A DNA stretch of 64,000 nucleotides, taken from positions 1 through 64,000 of IMG/VR virus record IMGVR_UViG_3300027917_000034. One strand, 5' to 3'. Of this stretch, positions 86-6,272 are shown in pieces (within the stretch, counting starts at the first letter, position 1; the number at the start of each line of letters is the position of its first letter). Origin of the DNA: a virus. The translations under genes were made by a program, and so were the position numbers. Below the pieces are notes generated by a model. That model did no database searches. It was not told the DNA's origin and saw only the letters and a program-made list of their open reading frames with translations.

Positions 86-120
86 GACCGCCTCCTTTCG
101 TGGTCAGAAAACTCTACCAG

Positions 121-203
121 TGCGAGCGAGAGGAGTCGAACCTCCACGCCCTCTCGGGCACCTGGGTTTGAGCCAGGCGTGTCTGCCGTTTCACCACGCT
201 CGC
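121..203 (-). tRNA. tRNA-Leu(CAA)
   Basis: Cloverleaf with long variable arm; anticodon arm CCTGG-CT CAA AC-CCAGG. Confidence 0.93.
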
Positions 204-204
204 G

Positions 205-284
205 TACCCGCTGCGGGACTCGAACCCGCACGCACGAGGCGCCGGGGTTTAGGCCCGGTGTGTCTGCCGTTCCACCAAGCGGGC
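205..284 (-). tRNA. tRNA-Leu(TAA), with C33
   Basis: Cloverleaf with long variable arm; CCGGG-CC TAA AC-CCCGG. Confidence 0.88.
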
Positions 285-288
285 TCGG

Positions 289-373
289 TGCTACGGAGAG
301 GAGTCGAACCTCCACGGGGACTATGCCCCACCAGCCCCTCAAGCTGGCGTGTCTACCATTTCACCACCGTAGC
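289..373 (-). tRNA. tRNA-Leu(GAG)
   Basis: CCAGC-TT GAG GG-GCTGG; long variable arm. Confidence 0.93.
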
Positions 374-377
374 GTAG

Positions 378-460
378 TGCCAGGGAGAGGAGTCGAACCT
401 CCACGACCTTTCGGCCACTCGGTTCTGAGCCGAGCGCGTCTACCATTTCACCACCCTGGC
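378..460 (-). tRNA. tRNA-Leu(CAG)
   Basis: CTCGG-CT CAG AA-CCGAG; long variable arm. Confidence 0.93.
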
Positions 461-464
461 ATAG

Positions 465-535
465 TGGGCACAGAGGGACTCGAACCCCCGACTCTTGGGT
501 GTAGGCCAAGAATGATCCCATTTCACCATGCGCCC
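465..535 (-). tRNA. tRNA-Val(TAC), with C33
   Basis: CTTGG-CC TAC AC-CCAAG; T arm GGTTCGAGTCC. Confidence 0.85.
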
Positions 536-545
536 ATGAAAACTC

Positions 546-622
546 TGGTCGGGCAGAAGGGATTTGAACCCCCGACCTCCGCGTCCCGAACGCGGCGTGC
601 TCCCAGACTGCACCACTGCCCG
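546..622 (-). tRNA. tRNA-Pro(CGG)
   Basis: CCGCG-TT CGG GA-CGCGG; C1:G72; encoded CCA. Confidence 0.93.
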
Positions 623-683
623 ATGTTGATCGGCTGGTAGGGCGTGGCCCTCTCTACCGCCGCACTTTGGACCGGCCGATCGG

Positions 684-754
684 TGGCAACGGAGGGAATC
701 GAACCCTCTTGATCGCGGATATGAGCCGCGTCCCCTAGCCCGTAGGTCGCTGCC
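684..754 (-). tRNA. tRNA with CAT anticodon (Met or Ile2), atypical D arm
   Basis: CGCGG-CT CAT AT-CCGCG; good acceptor and T arms; D arm is non-canonical. Confidence 0.72.
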
Positions 755-755
755 G

Positions 756-831
756 AGGCGGGGGCTGGATTTGAACCAGCGATCTCTTGGTTATGAGCCA
801 AGTGGGGACGACCAGGCTCCCCTACCCCGCA
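756..831 (-). tRNA. tRNA-Met(CAT), initiator-like
   Basis: TGCGGGG...CCCCGCC with a 1:72 mismatch; CTTGG-CT CAT AA-CCAAG; overall fMet-like body. Confidence 0.85.
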
Positions 832-905
832 GGCGCGCTCGCCGGGACTCGAACCCGGATTCCTGGCTTCGGAGGCCAGTGCCCTATCCTTTGGACGACG
901 AGCGC
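832..905 (-). tRNA. tRNA-Arg(CCG)
   Basis: CTGGC-CT CCG AA-GCCAG. Confidence 0.92.
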
Positions 906-1111
906 TTGATCTGATCGGCCAACGCATCCGCCTCTCTCGCGGCCTTGCGGTAGTGCTCTACGCCACGGCGTAGACACTCCTCGCAGTTGACCTCTGCCAA
1001 GCGTTTCAGCCCGGCCAACTCGACTCCTTTCCGTGTGTAGATCTCGTGACCCTCCACCCCGCAGAAAGCTCCACGGTAAGGGCTCACGAGATGAACCACT
1101 GACGGTTCCAT
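884..1111 (-). CDS. small putative Zn-binding protein inside the tRNA array
   Basis: RBS GGGAGGG before ATG 1111; VH..CG...VNCEECL motif, similar to ORF 13025-13273; the stop codon lies inside tRNA-Arg(CCG). Confidence 0.55.
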   Translation of the reverse strand: MEPSVVHLVSPYRGAFCGVEGHEIYTRKGVELAGLKRLAEVNCEECLRRGVEHYRKAAREADALADQIKRSSSKG

Positions 1112-1125
1112 GACGCCCTCCCTTC

Positions 1126-1199
1126 GGAGACCCCGGCCGGACTCGAACCGGCATTCCAAGGTTCGTAGCCTTGTGCCCTATCCTTTGGACGACGGGGCC
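1126..1199 (-). tRNA. tRNA-Arg(ACG)
   Basis: CAAGG-CT ACG AA-CCTTG. Confidence 0.92.
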
Positions 1200-1201
1200 A
1201 G

Positions 1202-1273
1202 CGCTCCCACGAGGACTCGAACCCCGATCCACGGGTTAGAAGCCCGGTGCCCTATCCGTTGGACGATGGGAGC
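1202..1273 (-). tRNA. tRNA-Arg(TCT)
   Basis: CGGG-CT TCT AA-CCCG. Confidence 0.9.
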
Positions 1274-1274
1274 G

Positions 1275-1348
1275 TGGAGGCGCAGGGCGGAGTCGAACCG
1301 CCGACTGGAGGGTTGCAACCTCCCGTCTTTCCGTTTGACCACTGCGCC
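1275..1348 (-). tRNA. tRNA-Cys(GCA)
   Basis: GGAGG-TT GCA AC-CCTCC; U73; encoded CCA. Confidence 0.93.
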
Positions 1349-1351
1349 AGA

Positions 1352-1484
1352 GGCCGACAAGGGATTGCGAGAGACGTTTACGTGCTCTGCCACTGAGCTA
1401 CCGCCTCCATAGAGGGGAGGCGGACGGGGATCGAACCCGCGACCACGCGCTTACAAGGCGATGTACTCCCACGAGCATTCGGCC
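1352..1484 (-). ncRNA. Y RNA 1 (YrlA-like; T arm, closed acceptor, D arm order)
   Basis: GGCCGAATGC...CTTGTCGGCC terminal stem with GNCGAANG motif; internal T arm GGTTCGATCCC, acceptor hairpin CCGCCTCC/GGAGGCGG, D arm TAGCTCAGTGGCAGAGC; close to the TROVE gene. Confidence 0.88.
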
Positions 1485-1558
1485 GGAGCCGGCTACGGGA
1501 CTCGAACCCGTTTCTCGGGCTTGGGAAGCCCGCGCCTCACCTGTTTGGCCTAGCCGGC
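1485..1558 (-). tRNA. tRNA-Gly(CCC)
   Basis: CGGGC-TT CCC AA-GCCCG; U73; abuts Y RNA 1. Confidence 0.9.
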
Positions 1559-1605
1559 AGTTGGGCGCCCCCGGGGGACAGGGGCGCCCGTTCGATCAAG
1601 TGGGG

Positions 1606-3234
1606 TTAGTTGGTAGCCAGGTCGATGCCGTCGATGATCTCCAGCCACGACCCGGTGTCACCAGCGAGGAAGGAGCTTGCGACCTTGAACACCGCGTCAC
1701 TCCAGCCGGACACTTGCAGGATCTCCGGGTGGTTCCCGTCGATCTGATGCGTGCGCCCGGGGGTGATGTCGATGCACACCAGCTTCGCGTCCCGGTTGCG
1801 GTTCCGCAGCGTCTCCCACTCGTGCATGAGAGCCGTTCCGCTCCCGTAGCCCCAATAGCCCCTGTCGGCCCATGACTCGTAGTCCGAGATGACCACGACG
1901 TGATCGACCTTCAGGCGCCGCTGGTTCACGTGGTTGAACGCAGCGCTCAGAGCCGTTCCACCTCCACCGAATCGGGCGAGCCGATCGGCTTCGGTCAGAA
2001 GCGGGTTCCGAGGCTCCGGACGGTAGCCGGTGTGGACCGACGTATCGACCGGGAGAACGGCTGCGTCACGGTTCTGACGCAGGTACGACGCAGAGAACAG
2101 CGCCGCGACGTCCACGCACCGGACCTTGGTGGCCACCTGCTCCATGCGACCCGTCTTCCGGTTCCGCTTGAAGCCTGTGACCGGGCTCCGCATCGACCCG
2201 GAGACGTCCACGACGATCAGCGTCCGGCCCTCTGCGACCGGGGCGTTCTCGGTGGCAATCTCCATGGCGTCGTGGAGAGCGTCCACGATCTTGCGAGGCA
2301 CGTCCGGGTGGATGTGCTTGTAGGCCGCGAGCAACTGGTACGGCATGACCCGGGCCTTCTGGATCGACTCCCGGTCCCGCAAGCGGTCCGCGATGAAGTC
2401 CTCCATGCCGGGGTCGGCCTTCAGAACCCCGTGCCGCAGAGCGGTGTTGAGGTTCATCCGGATGAAGTGCCACTGCCCGTTGCGGAAGATCTGCGCCCAC
2501 TGCTCGCCCGTGAGGGGCTCTGCCGTGAGCAACTGGAAGTCCACCGGAGGCGATGGCAGGCTCTTGTCTGCCTTCCACTCCTCGTACTGCCGGACGAGCG
2601 GCGGGAGATTCTTCCAGCCCTTCTTCCGCCGATCCTTCTCGCCCTTTCCGATCATGTACCCGAACAGCGCCTCGTGCTCCGGAGAAGCCGGGCTCGGGTG
2701 GACCATCTTCACGATGTCCGCGCCGGATGGGTCTTGACCGACCGACAGTTGACGGAACAGCCAGTTGGGCTTGTTCCTGGAGAAGAAGCCCCGGACGAGG
2801 TTCCGTGGCCCGGTGCCCAGCGACTTCCGACCGAGCTTTCCACTCCGCATCATCTGGACGAAGTTGCGGAGCATCTTCCCGTTGTCGATGACCTGCGGGA
2901 ATGCGGCCTTCAGGGCTGCGCGTCCGTTGTCACCACGAGAGGCCAGGACCGCCATGAGCAAGGCCGGCATGTCCTTCATGTAGCCTTCCTTGCGCGTGAA
3001 GATCGCCAGCTTCGCGATGAAGTCGGAGTCGCACTCCTTCGCCAGAGCGAGCACGCGGTCCAGGTGGTCCTCGGCGTTCACGTAGAACGTGTCCGAGAGG
3101 CACCCTGTCATCGCGTACCGAGCCAGGGCTTGCTTGGAGCCGAGAGCGTATGCCTTGCCCCCGGCTGCGTTCACTGCGTCTGCTGCCTTGACCGTCCGCC
3201 CACGGGACGATCCGAAAAGAGACTTGTTCGCCAT
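1606..3234 (-). CDS. rsr: TROVE-domain Ro60/Rsr RNA-binding protein with C-terminal vWA domain
   Basis: N-terminal 'N.AGG.AY......L..Y..TG.L..TFY' and 'GYMKDMPALL' segments typical of bacterial Ro60; vWA MIDAS 'VDVSGSM', 'GGGT', 'ISDYESW'; RBS GGAAGGGAGG before ATG 3234. Confidence 0.93.
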   Translation of the reverse strand: MANKSLFGSSRGRTVKAADAVNAAGGKAYALGSKQALARYAMTGCLSDTFYVNAEDHLDRVLALAKECDSDFIAKLAIFTRKEGYMKDMPALLMAVLASRGDNGRAALKAAFPQVIDNGKMLRNFVQMMRSGKLGRKSLGTGPRNLVRGFFSRNKPNWLFRQLSVGQDPSGADIVKMVHPSPASPEHEALFGYMIGKGEKDRRKKGWKNLPPLVRQYEEWKADKSLPSPPVDFQLLTAEPLTGEQWAQIFRNGQWHFIRMNLNTALRHGVLKADPGMEDFIADRLRDRESIQKARVMPYQLLAAYKHIHPDVPRKIVDALHDAMEIATENAPVAEGRTLIVVDVSGSMRSPVTGFKRNRKTGRMEQVATKVRCVDVAALFSASYLRQNRDAAVLPVDTSVHTGYRPEPRNPLLTEADRLARFGGGGTALSAAFNHVNQRRLKVDHVVVISDYESWADRGYWGYGSGTALMHEWETLRNRNRDAKLVCIDITPGRTHQIDGNHPEILQVSGWSDAVFKVASSFLAGDTGSWLEIIDGIDLATN

Positions 3235-3347
3235 GATCGACCTCCCTTCCGCCAACAGTGCGGCGCTTTCATGGCTGCCTTCCCCACCTACAGGCGTGGG
3301 GTGGCAATCTCCTATCGCTACCAGGTAGCGATTGGATAGTCAAGAGT

Positions 3348-3500
3348 GCCCTGACAAGTGAGCGCGAGAGCGTTTTTTTCAGCTTCCGGCCCATGATTCA
3401 GGCTCCGAGGAGCCGGCGGGCCGGGACAGGATTTGAACCTGCAACCTTTGATTTAGGAGATCAATGCTGTACCGATGTACTCCCACTAGGCATTCAGGGC
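3348..3500 (-). ncRNA. Y RNA 2 (tRNA domain opened in the D-loop; intact Arg-CCT-like anticodon arm)
   Basis: GCCCTGAATGC...CTTGTCAGGGC; internal GGTA-CAGC, TTGAT-CTCCTAA-ATCAA, T arm, acceptor CCGGCCC/GGGCCGG, then GCTG. Confidence 0.85.
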
Positions 3501-3573
3501 GGTGCTGGTAGGGGGAGTCGAACCCCCATCTTCAGGGTGGAAACCTGACGTCCTGCCGTTGAACGACACCAGC
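3501..3573 (-). tRNA. tRNA-Gly(TCC)
   Basis: TCAGG-TT TCC AC-CCTGA. Confidence 0.88.
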
Positions 3574-3576
3574 AAA

Positions 3577-3699
3577 GGCCGACAAGAGATGGTCGAGATA
3601 AGCGCCCCCGAAGGGCACCCGCCACAGAGCGGCCCCCGAAGGGGCCTTGGCGGCGGGCAAAGGATTTGAACCAATGTAATCCCGTCCGAGCATTCGGCC
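3577..3699 (-). ncRNA. Y RNA 3 (T loop, acceptor-like stem and UUCG hairpins)
   Basis: GGCCGAATGC..GGGATTACAT..ATCTC..CTTGTCGGCC; GGTTCAAATCC; two TTCG-capped hairpins. Confidence 0.82.
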
Positions 3700-3774
3700 G
3701 GAGCCCCGAGCGGGAATCGAACCCGCCATCTCCGCCATACCAAGGCGGCGAATCACCGTTGATTCATCCGGGGC
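3700..3774 (-). tRNA. tRNA-Thr(GGT)
   Basis: CCGCC-TT GGT AT-GGCGG. Confidence 0.85.
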
Positions 3775-3777
3775 AGA

Positions 3778-3905
3778 GGATCGACAAGGTGGGCGCGAGG
3801 CTATGCCTTTACCAAGGTTAGGCTACCTGGCCATGGAAAGCTCCGAGGAGCGGTGGCCAGGGGTGGATTTGAACCATCAAAGTAGTCCCGCAAGGCATTC
3901 GATCC
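3778..3905 (-). ncRNA. Y RNA 4 (YrlA-like)
   Basis: GGATCGAATGC...CTTGTCGATCC (compensatory stem); T arm TGGTTCAAATCCA, acceptor CCTGGCCA/TGGCCAGG, D arm TAGCCT..AGGC. Confidence 0.86.
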
Positions 3906-3907
3906 AG

Positions 3908-3978
3908 TGGAGCCGGGGGGAATCGAACCCCCATCCCCTGGGTGCAAACCAGGTGCTCTCCCGTTGAGCTACGGTCCC
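3908..3978 (-). tRNA. tRNA-Ala(TGC)
   Basis: CCTGG-TT TGC AC-CCAGG; G3:U70. Confidence 0.92.
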
Positions 3979-3981
3979 ATT

Positions 3982-4124
3982 GCGGCGACAAGGGTTGCAG
4001 AGATCGTACCTCCGGGGGTGTTCGCCCCGGCGCTCTGATTGAGCTATAGGCGCAGGACTGCACGGTGTTACCCGCCGCCCCTGCTGGAGCACCTAACGAT
4101 GTATTCCCCGCCTGCATTCGCCGC
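3982..4124 (-). ncRNA. Y RNA 5 (tRNA domain opened in the T-loop)
   Basis: GCGGCGAATGC...CTTGTCGCCGC; ATCGT-TAGGTGC-TCCA...GCGCCTA-TAGCTCAATCAGAGC-G-CCGGGG/CCCCGG-AGGT-ACGAT. Confidence 0.85.
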
Positions 4125-4127
4125 GTA

Positions 4128-4204
4128 GGAGACTGACCAGGGGTCGAACCTGGAAGCGCACGAGCCGATCGGTCTCCCGCACGCCGTCCGTCTCTTCAAT
4201 CTCC
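4128..4204 (-). ncRNA. tRNA-like RNA lacking a D stem, with an extended anticodon-position helix
   Basis: GGAGATTGA/TCAGTCTCC acceptor-like stem, T arm CCAGG-TTCGACC-CCTGG, helix GCGTGCGGG/CTCGTGCGC; no 7-nt anticodon loop. Confidence 0.6.
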
Positions 4205-4206
4205 GG

Positions 4207-4280
4207 TGGATCGTGCCGGGGTCGAACCGGCGACCTCCGCGATGCGAACGCGGCGCTCTCCCACACTGAGCTAACGACCC
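4207..4280 (-). tRNA. tRNA-Ala(CGC)
   Basis: CCGCG-TT CGC AT-CGCGG; G3:U70. Confidence 0.92.
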
Positions 4281-4284
4281 ATGA

Positions 4285-4352
4285 GGCCGACAAGGAACGG
4301 TGAGACGACGGTTTTTCTCCAACGAAAATGTAGTCCCTCCAAGCATTCGGCC
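4285..4352 (-). ncRNA. Y RNA 6 (minimal, Ro-binding module only)
   Basis: GGCCGAATGC TTGGA GGGACTACAT...GTCTC...CTTGTCGGCC; 68 nt, no tRNA arms. Confidence 0.8.
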
Positions 4353-4354
4353 GG

Positions 4355-4427
4355 TGGAGTCGGAGGGGCTTGAACCCTCGGCCTTCGGTCTGCCAGACCG
4401 ACGCTCTCCCAACTGAGCTACGACCCC
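4355..4427 (-). tRNA. tRNA-Ala(GGC)
   Basis: TCGGT-CT GGC AG-ACCGA; G3:U70. Confidence 0.92.
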
Positions 4428-4495
4428 ATCCACAACCCGTCAGGGGGGCTGCGGCGTATGAGAATGCGACCGGGACAGAACCCTTGTCGTCGCGG

Positions 4496-4567
4496 TGGGC
4501 GTGGAGGGATTTGAACCCCCGATCTTCTGCGCGTCGAGCAGACGTCTTTCCACTTGACCACACGCCC
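4496..4567 (-). tRNA. tRNA-Val(GAC), with C33
   Basis: TCTGC-TC GAC GC-GCAGA. Confidence 0.85.
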
Positions 4568-4569
4568 TC

Positions 4570-4644
4570 TGGTACCCCGCCCCGGACTCGAACCGGGATT
4601 CGCCGGCTTATAAGGCCGGTGCAGTACCCTTGTGCTAGCGGGGC
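4570..4644 (-). tRNA. tRNA-Ile(TAT)
   Basis: CCGGC-CT TAT AA-GCCGG; encoded CCA. Confidence 0.87.
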
Positions 4645-4692
4645 TCCGAGTTTTCGGAGCCCGGTATTCGCCTCATCATTGGAACCCCCTTC

Positions 4693-4767
4693 TGGTGCCC
4701 AGGGACGGAATCGAACCGTCGTTCTCGCACTTATCAGGCGCGCGTCTTGCCACTCGACCACCCGGGC
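4693..4767 (-). tRNA. tRNA-Ile(GAT)
   Basis: CGCGC-CT GAT AA-GTGCG; encoded CCA. Confidence 0.92.
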
Positions 4768-4768
4768 A

Positions 4769-4844
4769 TGGAGCCCCCGGCCGGACTCGAACCGGCATCC
4801 TCTCGGGTAGGAGCCGAGCGCACGTCCTGTCGTGCTACGGGGGC
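4769..4844 (-). tRNA. tRNA-Arg(CCT)
   Basis: CTCGG-CT CCT AC-CCGAG; encoded CCA. Confidence 0.9.
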
Positions 4845-4845
4845 A

Positions 4846-4923
4846 TGGGGTGATCGATGGGACTCGAACCCACTAGGGCCGGGATCACAACCCGGTGCCG
4901 CGACCACTTTGGCTTCGACCACC
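4846..4923 (-). tRNA. tRNA-His(GTG)
   Basis: CCGGG-TT GTG AT-CCCGG; G-1:C73; encoded CCA. Confidence 0.92.
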
Positions 4924-4927
4924 ATGA

Positions 4928-5056
4928 GAGCCGACAAGGAACCGATGAGATCGTGAGTCATTCTATGGGCAGGACTCGAACCTGCTTCTCCGGGATTGCC
5001 CGGCGCTTTTCCTCATAAGCTACCTCAGAGATGTAATCCCGCCGTGCATTCGGCTC
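4928..5056 (-). ncRNA. Y RNA 7 (unpermuted cloverleaf attached through the acceptor stem; 4-nt loop in place of the anticodon)
   Basis: GAGCCGAATGC...CTTGTCGGCTC; D arm TAGCTT..AAGC, CCGGG-CAAT-CCCGG, T arm GCAGGTTCGAGTCCTGC. Confidence 0.85.
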
Positions 5057-5130
5057 GGTACCAGCGCCGGGACTTGAACCCGATCCTCTCGGTCCACAGC
5101 CGAGCGCGCCACCCGTTGCGCCTCGCTGGC
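5057..5130 (-). tRNA. tRNA with GTG anticodon lacking His identity elements
   Basis: CTCGG-CT GTG GA-CCGAG; A73 and no G-1. Confidence 0.75.
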
Positions 5131-5131
5131 A

Positions 5132-5217
5132 TGGTCCCCCGAGAAGGAATCGAACCTCCCTGGCCATACGACGACGGGGTTACAGCCCGCCCACCATCCA
5201 TAGGTGTCTATCGGGGG
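5132..5217 (-). tRNA. tRNA-Tyr(GTA) with C1:G72
   Basis: GCGGG-CT GTA AC-CCCGT; long variable region; acceptor CCCCCGA/TCGGGGG-A-CCA. Confidence 0.85.
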
Positions 5218-5226
5218 AAAACTCAG

Positions 5227-5300
5227 TCCGCGTGGAGGGATTTGAACCCCCGTCTTCCGGCTCCCAAAGCCGGCGCCCGACCAGGCTGGGCCACACGCGG
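5227..5300 (-). tRNA. tRNA-Pro(TGG)
   Basis: CCGGC-TT TGG GA-GCCGG. Confidence 0.92.
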
Positions 5301-5301
5301 A

Positions 5302-5376
5302 TGGTGGAGAGCCCCGGAATCGAACCGAGATTCGCGGATTTTCAGTCCGCTGCTCTACCGATTGAGCTAACTCTCC
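5302..5376 (-). tRNA. tRNA-Phe(GAA)
   Basis: GCGGA-CT GAA AA-TCCGC; encoded CCA. Confidence 0.94.
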
Positions 5377-5377
5377 A

Positions 5378-5455
5378 TGGCGGGGATGACGGGATTTGAA
5401 CCCGCGATCTTCTGCGTGACAGGCAGATGTCCTACCCAGGCTAGACCACATCCCC
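5378..5455 (-). tRNA. tRNA-Asp(GTC)
   Basis: TCTGC-CT GTC AC-GCAGA; G73; encoded CCA. Confidence 0.94.
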
Positions 5456-5459
5456 AAAA

Positions 5460-5568
5460 GGCCGACAAGATCGATGAGAGCTTTTACATGCCGGACTCGA
5501 ACCGGCTAGGTTTGGTTGATAGCCAAATTGTGAACCAATCACGATGTACTCCCACCCGGCATTCGGCC
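5460..5568 (-). ncRNA. Y RNA 8 (unpermuted cloverleaf attached through the acceptor stem; ATC anticodon loop)
   Basis: GGCCGAATGC...CTTGTCGGCC; TACAT/ATGTA stem, GTGA-TTGGT-TCAC, TTTGG-CTATCAA-CCAAA, GCCGGTTCGAGTCCGGC. Confidence 0.85.
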
Positions 5569-5643
5569 TGGCAGGTCACTGAGGAATCGAACCCCACAGA
5601 CGTCCGGGTTTGGAGCCCAGACCGCGTACCCAGCGCGTGACCC
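5569..5643 (-). tRNA. tRNA-Trp(CCA), short D arm
   Basis: CTGGG-CT CCA AA-CCCGG; G73; encoded CCA. Confidence 0.82.
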
Positions 5644-5723
5644 AGAGCGTCTCCGTCCAGGGCGTATCCATGGAACGAGTCGCTTCATGCGTCTCTCGGA
5701 GACGTGGCAGCATCCCGAAGGTC

Positions 5724-5780
5724 GCTGCCCCCACTGGTACCGTTGCTCCCTTTCGGGCCTGGCGGTCCTTGGTGGGCCAG
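5724..5780 (-). ncRNA. SRP RNA (4.5S/helix 8)-like element
   Basis: CCGCCAGGCCC-GAAA-GGGAGCAACGG has the CAGG/GNRA/AGCA signature of SRP domain IV; closed by CCCAC/GTGGG. Confidence 0.72.
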
Positions 5781-5853
5781 CATCGGAGGCAGGGATCGAA
5801 CCTGCACTGACGCGGGGTCAAAGCCCGCCGCTCTACCGTTGAGCTACTCCGAT
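5781..5853 (-). tRNA. tRNA-Gln(TTG)
   Basis: GCGGG-CT TTG AC-CCCGC. Confidence 0.88.
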
Positions 5854-5864
5854 ATGAAAACTGC

Positions 5865-5937
5865 GGCTCGGGCGCGAGGACTCGAACCTCGATTAGCGGG
5901 GCCAGAACCCGCCGTCCTGCCATTAGACGACGCCCGA
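5865..5937 (-). tRNA. tRNA-Gln(CTG)
   Basis: GCGGG-TT CTG GC-CCCGC; U1:A72. Confidence 0.92.
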
Positions 5938-5938
5938 A

Positions 5939-6014
5939 TGGTGGGTCCACCGGGACTCGAACCCAGATCGTCCGATTAAGAGTCGGAGGCGTTGCCAATT
6001 ACGCTCATGGACCC
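5939..6014 (-). tRNA. tRNA-Lys(CTT)
   Basis: TCCGA-CT CTT AA-TCGGA; encoded CCA. Confidence 0.92.
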
Positions 6015-6019
6015 GTGAA

Positions 6020-6094
6020 GGCTGGCCAGGTGGGACTCGAACCCACAACATCCCGGTTAACAGCCGGGCGCTCTACCAGGTGAGCTTCTGGCCA
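6020..6094 (-). tRNA. tRNA-Asn(GTT)
   Basis: CCCGG-CT GTT AA-CCGGG. Confidence 0.92.
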
Positions 6095-6199
6095 ATATGC
6101 CCCGGGGCCGGGTGAGCCCCGGGGCGAAGATGCTCGGTTGTCACAGACCGTTCGGCCGTCGCCGGCAGGTTCACAATCGGAACCTGCTTCTTCGATCGG

Positions 6200-6272
6200 T
6201 GGGGGCAACAGGGCTCGAACCTGCTCAGACCGGATTAAAAGTCCGGTGCCCGTCCTGTCGGGCGCTACCCCC
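6200..6272 (-). tRNA. tRNA-Lys(TTT)
   Basis: CCGGA-CT TTT AA-TCCGG. Confidence 0.88.

What the first reader, a model, noticed from the sequence alone, without database searches (positions are those of the whole stretch)
1352..5568. Phage Ro60 with eight Y RNAs that present a tRNA in all four circular permutations
Seen: eight minus-strand elements (1352, 3348, 3577, 3778, 3982, 4285, 4928, 5460) lie between tRNAs around a TROVE gene. They share stem-GAAUGC-N4-6-GGGA-N-UAC...YCUC-N6-8-CUUGUC-stem. The terminal stems differ but always pair (GGCCGA/UCGGCC, GCCCUGA/UCAGGGC, GGAUCGA/UCGAUCC, GCGGCGA/UCGCCGC, GAGCCGA/UCGGCUC). The cargo between the conserved halves is a tRNA-like domain opened at a different place: anticodon arm (Y1, Y4, probably Y3), D-loop (Y2), T-loop (Y5), acceptor end (Y7, Y8), or absent (Y6). 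Established: Ro60 binds Y RNAs through a GNCGAAN(0-1)G stem, and YrlA-type Y RNAs carry one fixed permutation with the Ro stem at the anticodon position; loci usually carry only a few Y RNAs. Inference: this is a modular RNP kit in which one Ro ring is loaded with adaptors exposing different tRNA faces. They could be decoys for host tRNA-cleaving defence nucleases or toxins, or tethers that recruit different tRNA-handling enzymes. I know of no described case with all four permutations.
Basis: partly seen in the sequence, partly recalled or inferred. Interest (0 to 1): 0.96.

Follow-up and report, generated by a model that had tools for sequence, protein, structure and literature searches.

The report
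Phage Ro60 with eight Y RNAs
An uncultivated tailed phage from marine sediment encodes a Ro60 RNA-binding ring and, between its tRNA genes, eight partner "Y RNAs" with one shared handle but differently wired tRNA-like bodies; similar arrays occur in many related phages and I found no description of them in print.

Summary
The 5' motif occurs exactly eight times in 64 kb, all on the minus strand at the stated places. A covariance model built from 46 foreign short elements finds seven of the eight at 39-55 bits, Y2 partially, and nothing else.

The shared module is not new. It is the Ro60-binding module of known YrlA-type Y RNAs, as the Rfam RF02553 consensus shows. Its two helices covary strongly across phages. 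The gene is a true Ro60/Rsr orthologue.

The different wirings are real in silico:
- Y1 and Y4 are canonical YrlA; Y3 is a degenerate one; Y6 is module only.
- Y7 and Y8 join through the acceptor stem.
- Y2 joins through the D stem and Y5 through the T stem.

These folds are the MFE or within 0.6 kcal/mol of it, and 0 of 1000 shuffles of Y2 or Y5 give their type. Y5 is a singleton without comparative support. Y2's type recurs, and Y7 has a homologue in another phage with different wiring.

The claim that loci carry only a few Y RNAs does not hold here. Ro60 relatives carry arrays of about 3-9. This scan has also seen similar arrays on other DNA.

Decoy or tether functions are untested. Verdict: new variant of a known kind.

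The parts
1352..1484 (-). Y1, 133 nt. Canonical YrlA-type Y RNA. Order: handle, small hairpin with a 7-nt anticodon-like loop (CUUGUAA), 3-bp anticodon-stem remnant, T arm, 8-bp closed acceptor stem, D arm. Abuts tRNA-Gly (1485) and lies 3 nt from tRNA-Cys (1348).
   Evidence: Rfam YrlA 57.1/51.1 bits with full-length alignment. R1 42.5 bits. Strict AC-open cloverleaf. Homologues L051 2236, L137 4413 and L118 4276.
1606..3234 (-). Ro60/Rsr orthologue (TROVE HEAT-repeat ring plus vWA domain). The ATG at 3234 is preceded by GGAAGGGAGG. The mechanical ORF runs to 3255.
   Evidence: Pfam vWA_Ro60 30 bits and TROVE 25.3 bits, both above cut-off. phmmer hits to 2NVO 1.2e-15, 9KOP/9L5Y 1e-10 and 1YVP 6e-4. 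phrog_850 2.5e-33. 43% identity to the Myxococcus phage Mx1 TROVE protein.
3348..3500 (-). Y2, 153 nt. The handle joins the cargo through a 4-bp D stem (CAGC/GCUG). The cargo has an anticodon arm (5 bp, loop CUCCUAA), a 5-nt variable loop, a T arm and a 7-8-bp acceptor stem closed by an inserted hairpin. The D-loop-like ACAUCGGUA follows the handle.
   Evidence: Rfam tRNA 32 bits, above GA 29, with a broken D stem in the linear reading. Strict D-open match; 0/1000 shuffles of Y2 give D-open. The tRNA-like fold is 0.6 kcal/mol above the MFE. Analogues L034 9731 and L120 6688.
3577..3699 (-). Y3, 123 nt. Degenerate YrlA-type. It keeps a perfect T loop (UUCAAAU) on a weak stem and an 8-bp closed acceptor stem with an inserted hairpin. 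The D arm is replaced by a GC hairpin with a UUCG loop.
   Evidence: R1 44 bits. MFE. Shares a 12-nt T-arm stretch with Y4. No Rfam YrlA hit.
3778..3905 (-). Y4, 128 nt. Canonical YrlA-type: T arm, 8-bp closed acceptor stem with an inserted hairpin, and a D arm with an 11-nt GG loop. It has UACUU instead of UACAU.
   Evidence: Rfam YrlA 37.7 bits. R1 39.1 bits. Strict AC-open match.
3982..4124 (-). Y5, 143 nt. The handle joins the cargo through a 3-4-bp stem in the T-stem position. Order: 7-bp closed acceptor stem with a long insert, UA, D arm GCUC-AAUCA-GAGC (no GG), G, a 6-bp hairpin with a 7-nt loop, AGGUA. It has no T loop.
   Evidence: The unconstrained MFE is this cloverleaf. Only strict T-open match among 76 cargo elements; 0/1000 shuffles of Y5 match any type. 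Only element with a tRNA-type D arm and no T arm. Against: no Rfam hit, no nhmmer hit, no homologue.
4285..4352 (-). Y6, 68 nt. Handle only, plus one small hairpin. This is the commonest form of the family elsewhere (57-82 nt).
   Evidence: R1 55.2 bits. Aligns with 45 foreign short elements.
4928..5056 (-). Y7, 129 nt. The handle joins a complete cloverleaf through the acceptor stem (7 bp with one A-A mismatch). The D arm has GG, the T arm is canonical, and the anticodon loop is only 4 nt.
   Evidence: Rfam tRNA 45.9 bits at 4961-5029. ARAGORN calls it tRNA-???. The MFE is this fold. The homologous body in L011 11494 has different wiring and a 7-nt loop.
5459..5569 (-). Y8, 111 nt. The handle joins the cargo through a 4-bp acceptor-position stem (ACAU/AUGU). 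It has a mini D arm (loop UUGGU), an anticodon arm (5 bp, loop CUAUCAA) and a T arm identical over 17 nt to those of two tRNA-Arg genes.
   Evidence: R1 48.8 bits. nhmmer against the window's tRNA profile E 6.8e-6. The MFE is this fold. blastn.
120..6272 (-). The tRNA array, 34 tRNA genes called. The Ro60 gene and the Y RNAs are embedded in it. The tRNA ends punctuate the Y RNAs.
   Evidence: ARAGORN and Rfam. No terminator-like site on the minus strand inside the array.

Best explanation
The eight elements are Y RNAs of the YrlA family, the non-coding partners of the phage's own Ro60 ring protein.

How they are probably made (inferred). They are transcribed with the tRNAs as one long minus-strand precursor. 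The enzymes that trim the neighbouring tRNAs (RNase P at tRNA 5' ends, RNase Z or exonucleases at 3' ends) release them, so each ends at the base of its terminal stem.

How they probably work (inferred by homology). The constant handle is terminal stem P1, the internal loop GAAUGC/CUUG, helix P2 (NNNGGGAN/N'UCUCNNN) and UACAU. It docks on Ro60 as in characterised Rsr-YrlA particles. The variable body projects from P2 and serves as the tether or recognition surface for tRNA-binding factors, such as host PNPase or tRNA-processing and tRNA-modifying enzymes. One Ro60 would then form several RNPs with different specificities during infection. The tRNA-like body is grafted to the handle through any of its four arms.

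Shown here: the sequences, the covarying handle, co-localisation with Ro60 genes on the same strand, and the predicted folds.

Inferred: expression, processing, Ro60 binding, and any role of the different wirings.
For: Handle:
- Eight copies on one strand.
- It matches the Rfam YrlA consensus CgaAUGC..GgaaCUAc...cUuGucG.
- P1 and P2 covary across 46 elements from unrelated phage contigs: 95.4% of cells paired, covariation score 0.569 against 0.138 for shuffles and at most 0.095 for slid partners.

Protein: a Ro60 orthologue.

Linkage: all 95 model hits in 43 metagenome loci chosen only by their Ro60 relative lie on the Ro60 strand. They sit within about 2.5 kb of the gene, 3-7 per locus in the richer loci.

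Processing: spacers of 0-4 nt to flanking tRNAs, no encoded CCA at the tRNA-Y1 junction read, and no internal terminator found.

Bodies:
- The tRNA junction signature (linkers 0-1/2/1/4-5, 7-8-bp closed acceptor stem) is kept in the closed-acceptor wirings Y1, Y2, Y4 and Y5. Their own type appears in at most 1 of 1000 shuffles.
- The proposed folds are the MFE or near it.
- The cargos are not recent copies of neighbouring tRNAs.
- Y5 lacks both the T loop and the D-loop GG, which pair with each other in tRNA.
- A GG motif after UACA is enriched where the D arm is missing (Fisher p = 1.7e-4).
- Distinct cargo classes (A, B, C and short) recur together in related loci.

Precedent:
- Rsr-YrlA-PNPase, and RNase P and CCA-adding enzyme acting on M. 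smegmatis YrlA (PMC4201824).
- Thermus phage phiLo Ro60 binds two Yrl RNAs and host PNPase (PMC12135203).
Against: - There are no expression, end-mapping or binding data. No RNA run holds the stretch.
- No element reaches the Rfam YrlA gathering score.
- Y5 and Y8 have no homologue in about 120 cargo-bearing elements, so their folds lack covariation support.
- Many cargos elsewhere are not tRNA-like at all. The body may therefore matter little.
- No RNA-repair or tRNA-handling enzyme was found among the neighbouring ORFs tested.
Confidence: 0.72

Rival explanations
1. The wiring carries no specific function. Only the handle matters, and the body is a stable fold that protects the RNA from exonucleases. 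The different connectivities would be by-products of recombination between handle halves and the densely packed tRNA genes of the array. Reading from any point in one tRNA to the same point in the next gives a permuted tRNA with a closed acceptor stem, as Wang 2018 proposed for the origin of YrlA.
For: - Cargos across the family are very heterogeneous. They include plain hairpins and non-tRNA bodies.
- The commonest form has no body.
- Y3 is visibly degenerate.
- Y5 and Y8 are singletons.
- The same body is wired differently in Y7 and L011 11494.
- Chen 2014 lists nuclease protection as one possibility (PMC4201824).
Against: - The cargos are not recent copies of nearby tRNAs.
- The tRNA junction geometry and 7-8-bp acceptor stems are kept in every closed-acceptor wiring.
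- The T loop and the D-loop GG are lost together in Y5, and a compensating GG motif appears where the D arm is absent.
- Classes A, B and C recur as a set in loci whose Ro60 proteins are only about 45% identical to the window's.
Confidence: 0.3
2. The bodies are decoys for host tRNA-targeting defence nucleases or toxins. They would titrate or trap these enzymes on Ro60, and each wiring would expose the face a given enzyme recognises.
For: - The elements sit in a phage tRNA array, a context linked to tRNA-targeting host defences. That link is from my own knowledge and I checked no paper for it.
- Several bodies and many short elements carry 7-nt loops with U at position 2 and A at positions 6-7, as anticodon loops do: Y1 CUUGUAA, Y2 CUCCUAA, Y8 CUAUCAA, and many.
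- Y2's loop matches the window's tRNA-Arg(CCU) loop at 6 of 7 positions.
Against: - Y4, Y3, Y6 and Y7 have no anticodon-like loop, and Y5's loop lacks U33.
- No nuclease target is known.
- Nothing here tests this idea.
Confidence: 0.15
3. Some elements are permuted or interrupted pre-tRNAs that mature into working tRNAs. The handle would be excised and the ends joined, as for the permuted tRNA genes of red algae.
For: - Y2 and Y8 keep a full anticodon arm.
- Y7 scores 45.9 bits as tRNA.
- M. smegmatis YrlA is cut by RNase P and receives CCA (PMC4201824).
Against: - Y1, Y3, Y4 and Y6 have no anticodon arm, Y7 has a 4-nt loop, and Y5 has no T loop.
- No splicing-type endonuclease or RNA ligase was found among the ORFs tested.
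- The handle is conserved as a Ro60-type module.
Confidence: 0.03

Closest known systems
YrlA-type bacterial and mycobacteriophage Y RNAs (Rfam RF02553; Chen et al. 2014, PMC4201824; Wang et al. 2018, 10.1101/312249)
   Same: - The same Ro-binding module (CGAAUGC..GGGANUAC...CUUGUCG).
- The same position beside the Ro60 gene and on its strand.
- Y1 and Y4 have the same T arm, closed acceptor stem and D arm order ('circularly permuted tRNA').
   Different: - There are eight copies in one operon, punctuated by tRNAs.
- Six of the eight do not have the YrlA body topology.
- None reaches the Rfam gathering score.
- Y1 carries an extra hairpin with an anticodon-like loop.
D. radiodurans Yrn1
   Same: In Chen 2014's model the T and D arms face the other way relative to the RNA ends, and the stem-loop between them takes the anticodon-arm position. 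The Ro stem therefore sits at the acceptor side, as in Y7 and Y8.
   Different: - Yrn1's Ro module resembles animal Y RNAs and its tRNA likeness is weak (PMC4201824).
- Y7 is a near-complete cloverleaf with the YrlA-type handle.
- Homology between them was not tested.
Short Y RNAs without a tRNA-like body (Salmonella and M. smegmatis YrlB, D. radiodurans Yrn2)
   Same: Y6 and the many 57-82-nt elements are a handle plus a small hairpin. Chen 2014 notes that each studied species has at least one such hairpin-type Y RNA.
   Different: No sequence homology was tested. The phage short forms often end in a 7-nt anticodon-like loop.
Thermus phage phiLo Ro60 with Yrl1 and Yrl2 (NAR 2025, PMC12135203)
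   Same: A phage-encoded Ro60 with Y RNA-like partners encoded beside the gene. Binding to Ro60 and to host PNPase has been shown experimentally there.
   Different: phiLo has two RNAs, found through a CGAA motif. That paper describes no tRNA-array context and no permuted tRNA bodies. Its Ro60 is only distantly similar (E 1e-10).
Circularly permuted tRNA genes (Cyanidioschyzon merolae and others, as cited in 10.1101/312249)
   Same: The gene order is 3' half before 5' half, with the acceptor stem initially closed.
   Different: Those mature into working tRNAs by splicing-type excision. Here most bodies lack an anticodon arm or a T loop, and the intervening sequence is a conserved protein-binding module.

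Membership tests
YrlA-type Y RNA (RF02553) | Encoded within a few kb of a Ro60/Rsr gene and on its strand | tested here: met
   All eight lie within 2.4 kb of the TROVE gene on the minus strand. The same holds for all 95 model hits beside Ro60 relatives.
YrlA-type Y RNA (RF02553) | GNCGAAN0-1G motif in the 5' strand of the terminal helix | tested here: met
   Seven of eight have G-N-CGAA-U-G. Y2 has UGAA with a compensating A opposite. The same C-G to U-A change is seen in 4 of 46 foreign elements.
YrlA-type Y RNA (RF02553) | Body ordered T arm, closed acceptor stem, D arm, with the Ro stem at the anticodon position | tested here: inconclusive
   Met by Y1 and Y4. Degenerate in Y3. Not met by Y2, Y5, Y6, Y7 and Y8.
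YrlA-type Y RNA (RF02553) | Score at or above Rfam's gathering threshold (69 bits) | tested here: not met
   Y1 57.1 bits and Y4 37.7 bits. The other six have no YrlA hit at E <= 1. Y5 has no Rfam hit at all.
YrlA-type Y RNA (RF02553) | Bound and stabilised by Ro60/Rsr; carries tRNA-type modifications (TruB, DusA) | not testable with these tools
   Needs RIP, EMSA and modification mapping.
Ro60/Rsr protein | TROVE HEAT-repeat ring followed by a vWA domain, with full-length similarity to solved Ro60 structures | tested here: met
   Pfam TROVE and vWA_Ro60 are above cut-off. 2NVO aligns over residues 18-524 at E 1.2e-15; 9KOP and 1YVP also match.
Yrn1-type orientation (Ro stem at the acceptor side) | D arm before T arm, with an anticodon-position hairpin between them | tested here: met
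   Y7 has D, AC, T at 45.9 tRNA bits. For Y8. The type recurs in L046 4111, L041 720, L005 4079 and L060 1311. This tests orientation only, not homology to Yrn1.
Permuted pre-tRNA genes that mature into tRNAs | Complete set of tRNA parts (7-nt anticodon loop, T loop, D loop) able to form a working tRNA after processing | tested here: not met
   Y1, Y3, Y4 and Y6 have no anticodon arm. Y7 has a 4-nt loop. Y5 has no T loop and no D-loop GG.

The most novel reading that the evidence does not exclude
Phage Ro60 proteins work with libraries of Y RNAs. One constant handle is grafted onto every possible entry point of the tRNA cloverleaf: the four arms, and in relatives also the junctions. Each RNP would then display a different tRNA face. 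The phage would use this set to capture, mislead or recruit distinct tRNA-handling enzymes, including host tRNA-targeting defence nucleases. That would make Ro60 and Y RNA a programmable counter-defence or RNA-surveillance platform of large phages.
Probability: 0.15. Interest if true: 0.9.

Novelty: new variant of a known kind. Interest (0 to 1): 0.7.

Why it matters
What the tRNA-like domain of bacterial Y RNAs does is an open question (PMC4201824). Here a single phage Ro60 has eight natural variants of that domain. Handle-only, acceptor-joined, anticodon-side-joined, D-joined and T-joined forms sit side by side.

Related phages and metagenome contigs carry comparable arrays of about 3-9. This gives a ready-made set of natural variants for asking which tRNA face matters and which partner each form recruits.

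It also shows that Y RNA repertoires are much larger and more modular in phages than the one to four RNAs described for bacteria, and that the current Rfam model misses most of them. If the bodies target host tRNA enzymes or defence nucleases, this would be a new layer of phage-host conflict.

Tried and rejected
- Megablast of 1300-5600 against GenBank phages: no match.
- Myxococcus phage Mx1, the nearest Ro60 at 43% identity: the module motif is absent from its 13.6-kb locus and R1 has no hit there. The same holds for L101 and L102; L100 has one weak hit.
- RNA evidence: no RNA holder was listed for the stretch. Read laying was not used, because DNA contigs cannot show RNA ends.
- Rfam on Y5 alone found nothing. 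nhmmer with a profile of the window's tRNAs also found nothing in Y5.
- My first loose scan for permuted cloverleaves called 'T-open' in almost every element, so it had no discriminating power. I discarded it and replaced it with a strict version plus shuffles.
- A regex hairpin classifier was noisy. I used it only to pick elements for inspection.
- Only 14 of 91 pattern-derived IMG/VR loci hold a Ro60 relative within the fetched stretch. Many stretches are short, and some pattern hits are chance matches in coding sequence. I therefore based the linkage claim on the Ro60-anchored loci instead.
- Ten neighbouring ORFs had no informative Pfam hit. No RNA ligase, kinase-phosphatase or CCA enzyme was seen among the ORFs tested.
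- The reviews PMC10870794 and PMC6047535 are not held.
- The idea that the cargos are recent copies of adjacent tRNAs is rejected.

Full report
**Observation**

On the minus strand the window begins with an array of 34 tRNA genes, at 120-6272. The motif GAATGC-N3-8-GGGA-N-TAC occurs exactly eight times in the 64 kb. All copies are on the minus strand between 1463 and 5564.

Each copy is followed 40-130 nt later by CTTGTC and by the complement of the bases before GAATGC. Extending these terminal stems gives the eight elements:

| Element | Coordinates |
|---|---|
| Y1 | 1484-1352 |
| Y2 | 3500-3348 |
| Y3 | 3699-3577 |
| Y4 | 3905-3778 |
| Y5 | 4124-3982 |
| Y6 | 4352-4285 |
| Y7 | 5056-4928 |
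| Y8 | 5569-5459 |

Every unconstrained MFE fold closes the terminal stem.

The gene between Y1 and Y2 (1606-3234) passes the Pfam cut-offs for TROVE and vWA_Ro60. It aligns over its full length with D. radiodurans Rsr (2NVO, E 1.2e-15) and with the Ro60 of Thermus phage phiLo. It also matches Xenopus Ro60 over residues 20-356. It belongs to phrog_850.

The window is from an IMG/VR virus record of 81.9 kb. It encodes a portal protein, DNA polymerase, UvsX-like recombinase, DnaB helicase and primase. Its DNA is held by marine sediment metagenomes.

**The shared module**

The module is not a new motif. When Y1 is aligned to Rfam's YrlA model (RF02553), the consensus reads CgaAUGCuuggGgaaCUAc ... 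cUuGucG. CUUGUC.

A pattern scan of IMG/VR found the module in 91 stretches. Some of these are chance matches in coding DNA.

I aligned 46 short elements of 57-82 nt, which are module plus a small hairpin; 45 came from unrelated contigs and one was Y6. Two helices covary strongly:
- P1 is the terminal stem.
- P2 is NNNGGGAN pairing with N'UCUCNNN. The N after GGGA covaries with its partner as C-G, G-C and U-A.
- 95.4% of cells are paired. The covariation score is 0.569, against 0.138 in shuffles and at most 0.095 when partners are slid.

The covariance model R1 built from this alignment finds Y1 and Y3-Y8 at 39-55 bits. It finds Y2 only partially, because of its long insert. It finds nothing else on either strand of the window. 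The eight are therefore real members of a widespread, structurally constrained RNA family whose handle is that of known Y RNAs.

**How common are arrays**

R1 gave 160 hits in the IMG/VR stretches. Several contigs carry 6-9 copies within a few kb (L072, L037, L021, L079, L045).

I then searched independently for relatives of the Ro60 protein in metagenome contigs and obtained 43 loci at 41-55% identity. R1 found 95 hits in these loci. All 95 are on the Ro60 strand and lie within about 2.5 kb of the gene. Counts per locus range from none or one up to seven, with 3-7 in the richer loci.

So eight is at the upper end but not exceptional. The strict same-strand adjacency is the best available indirect evidence that these RNAs work with Ro60.

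This scan's notebook also records similar phage Ro60 and handle-RNA arrays on other DNA. I treated those notes as leads only.

**The bodies**

*Y1 and Y4* are canonical YrlA: T arm, 8-bp closed acceptor stem, D arm. They score 57.1 and 37.7 bits against Rfam YrlA, below the gathering score of 69. Y1 also has a small hairpin with a 7-nt anticodon-like loop. This feature is common in the phage family.

*Y3* is a degenerate version. It has a perfect T loop on a weak stem, and its D arm is replaced by a GC hairpin.

*Y6* is the handle only.

*Y7* is a nearly complete cloverleaf joined through its acceptor stem. Rfam scores it at 45.9 bits as tRNA, and ARAGORN calls it tRNA-???. Its anticodon loop is only 4 nt.

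*Y8* is joined through a 4-bp stem in the acceptor position. It has a mini D arm, a 5-bp anticodon arm with a 7-nt loop, and a T arm.

*Y2* has an anticodon arm, a 5-nt variable loop, a T arm and a closed 7-8-bp acceptor stem. After the acceptor stem come AA and then GCUG, which pairs with a CAGC just before the anticodon arm. The handle therefore enters through the D stem. Rfam's tRNA model scores the linear reading at 32 bits and marks the D stem as broken.

*Y5* has a closed 7-bp acceptor stem, then UA, then a D arm GCUC-AAUCA-GAGC, then G, then a 6-bp hairpin with a 7-nt loop, then AGGUA. A 3-4-bp closing stem sits in the T-stem position. There is no T loop.

**Are the D-stem and T-stem wirings more than chance?**

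My first loose scan called 'T-open' almost everywhere, so I discarded it.

The strict scan required the tRNA junction signature:
- linkers of 0-1, 2, 1 and 4-5 nt in cyclic order;
- a 7-8-bp acceptor closure;
- a 4-bp D stem followed by A14;
- a 5-6-bp anticodon stem with a 7-nt loop;
- a T-loop motif where a T arm is expected.

It classifies Y1 and Y4 as anticodon-side open, Y2 as D-open and Y5 as T-open. Among 69 cargo-bearing elements from other phages it finds ten anticodon-side forms, one weak D-open and no T-open. It finds the observed type in 0 of 1000 dinucleotide shuffles of Y2 and of Y5.

The proposed cloverleaves are identical to the unconstrained MFE for Y5, Y7 and Y8. For Y2 the proposed fold is 0.6 kcal/mol above the MFE.

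Against Y5:
- no Rfam family matches it at all;
- a profile of the window's tRNAs finds nothing in it;
- it has no homologue in about 120 cargo-bearing elements.

Its reading therefore rests on a single sequence.

**Comparative support for the other wirings**

Acceptor-side forms, with the T arm last and directly followed by P2, recur in L046 4111, L041 720, L005 4079 and L060 1311.

Y7 has a clear homologue, L011 11494, with the same acceptor, D, anticodon and T sequences. In L011 the acceptor 5' strand pairs with an upstream segment instead of a downstream one, and the anticodon loop has 7 nt. The same body has thus been rewired between phages.

For the D-side wiring, L034 9731 and L120 6688 resemble Y2. 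A recurrent class in the Ro60 relatives, 'class C', has a T arm plus a closed acceptor stem and no D arm. In it the acceptor stem is followed by a few A-rich nucleotides (UAA in L110, GAA or longer elsewhere) and then directly by P2, so P2 sits where the D stem would be.

In these D-arm-less forms a D-loop-like A-N1-4-GG-U/A-A follows the conserved UAC. The motif is present in 13 of 22 T-arm-bearing elements without a D hairpin, against 8 of 55 with one (Fisher p = 1.7e-4). These sequences are related to each other, so the p-value is indicative only.

Classes A (hairpin, T, acceptor, D), B (T, acceptor, D), C and short forms occur together in many loci whose Ro60 proteins are only about 45% identical to the window's. 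This argues that the classes are maintained rather than decaying. The family also holds five-way junctions and bodies that are not tRNA-like, so 'four permutations' understates the variety.

**Mechanism**

Shown:
- a conserved, covarying handle;
- same-strand linkage to Ro60 genes;
- tRNA-like bodies that keep tRNA junction geometry;
- tight punctuation by tRNAs, with 0-4 nt spacers, no encoded CCA at the junction I read (tRNA-Gly to Y1), and no terminator-like site on the minus strand inside the array.

Inferred:
- The array is one precursor.
- RNase P, together with RNase Z or exonucleases, frees the Y RNAs while maturing the tRNAs.
- The handle binds Ro60 as in Rsr-YrlA.
- The bodies tether Ro60 to tRNA-binding factors.

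Published precedent exists for several of these steps. Rsr, YrlA and PNPase form a complex. TruB and DusA modify YrlA. RNase P and the CCA enzyme act on M. smegmatis YrlA because it has a 7-bp acceptor stem (PMC4201824). The phage phiLo Ro60 binds two Yrl RNAs and host PNPase (PMC12135203).

Geometrically, each wiring hides one end or the elbow of the tRNA L-shape and leaves the rest exposed.

The main rival is that only the handle matters and the wirings are by-products of recombination in a tRNA array. Three observations weaken it without excluding it: the cargos are not recent copies of neighbouring tRNAs, the T loop and the D-loop GG are lost together in Y5, and the classes recur together. 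The decoy idea has only circumstantial support, namely the anticodon-like loops in some elements.

**Novelty**

The following are already in print:
- YrlA as a circularly permuted tRNA mimic with a closed acceptor stem (10.1101/312249);
- the opposite orientation in Yrn1 (PMC4201824);
- a second, hairpin-type Y RNA in each of the three bacterial species characterised (PMC4201824);
- Ro60 with Y RNA-like partners in phages (PMC4201824, PMC12135203, PMC7824862).

Four full-text searches found no description of Y RNAs joined through the D or T stem, of Y RNA arrays, or of modular bodies on one handle. Two key reviews are not held, so the check is incomplete.

I rate this as a new variant of a known kind. 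It is of real interest to the Ro60/Y RNA and phage-tRNA fields, but it is computational only and has one weakly supported member (Y5).

Noticed in passing
window 4125-4204 (minus strand): An 80-nt tRNA-like element that ARAGORN does not call. It has a 7-bp acceptor-type stem (GGAGAUU/AGUCUCC) and a canonical T arm (CCAGG-UUCGACC-CCUGG), but no normal D or anticodon arm. It fills the gap between tRNA-Ala(CGC) and Y5. Another note on this window (e1-6108920) also flags it.
   Followed up: no
window 4451-4493 (plus strand): The plus strand reads GAATGC...GGGAC...CTTGTC, a miniature handle-like string antisense to the operon. Model R1 gives no hit there on either strand at E <= 1.
   Followed up: partly
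window 5709-5789 (minus strand): A weak match to the bacterial small SRP (4.5S) RNA model: 30.4 bits against a gathering score of 40, E 0.004. It lies between tRNA-Trp and tRNA-Gln. It could be another structured RNA in the array.
   Followed up: no
L072, L037, L021, L079, L045 (IMG/VR) and L103, L117 (metagenome): Other contigs carry 6-9 handle-bearing RNAs within a few kb. Some bodies are not tRNA-like, for example repeated GC hairpins in L021 1908 and a long perfect hairpin in L045 4752.
   Followed up: partly
A2 (class C elements from L110, L143, L121, L126 and others): In the segment before the T arm, CUGGUAAUCUG in one sequence corresponds to CAGGUAACCAG in others. Two positions change to the same base (U,U versus A,A) rather than to complementary bases. 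This is unexplained and reflects only one event.
   Followed up: no
window 4928-5056 versus L011 11494-11624: The same tRNA-like body is wired differently in two phages. In Y7 the acceptor 5' strand pairs with a downstream strand. In L011 it pairs with an upstream strand, and the T arm runs straight into P2. L011 keeps a 7-nt anticodon loop where Y7 has 4 nt.
   Followed up: partly
window 3348-3500 and 3778-3905: The hairpins inserted in the closed acceptor stems of Y2 and Y4 share the 12-nt string GCUCCUCGGAGC. Y3 and Y5 also carry a hairpin at this place. It may block RNase P or be a further binding site.
   Followed up: no
window about 920-1120 (minus strand): A small ORF sits inside the tRNA array between tRNA-Arg(ACG) and tRNA-Arg(CCG). 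It was read from the sequence and was not searched.
   Followed up: no
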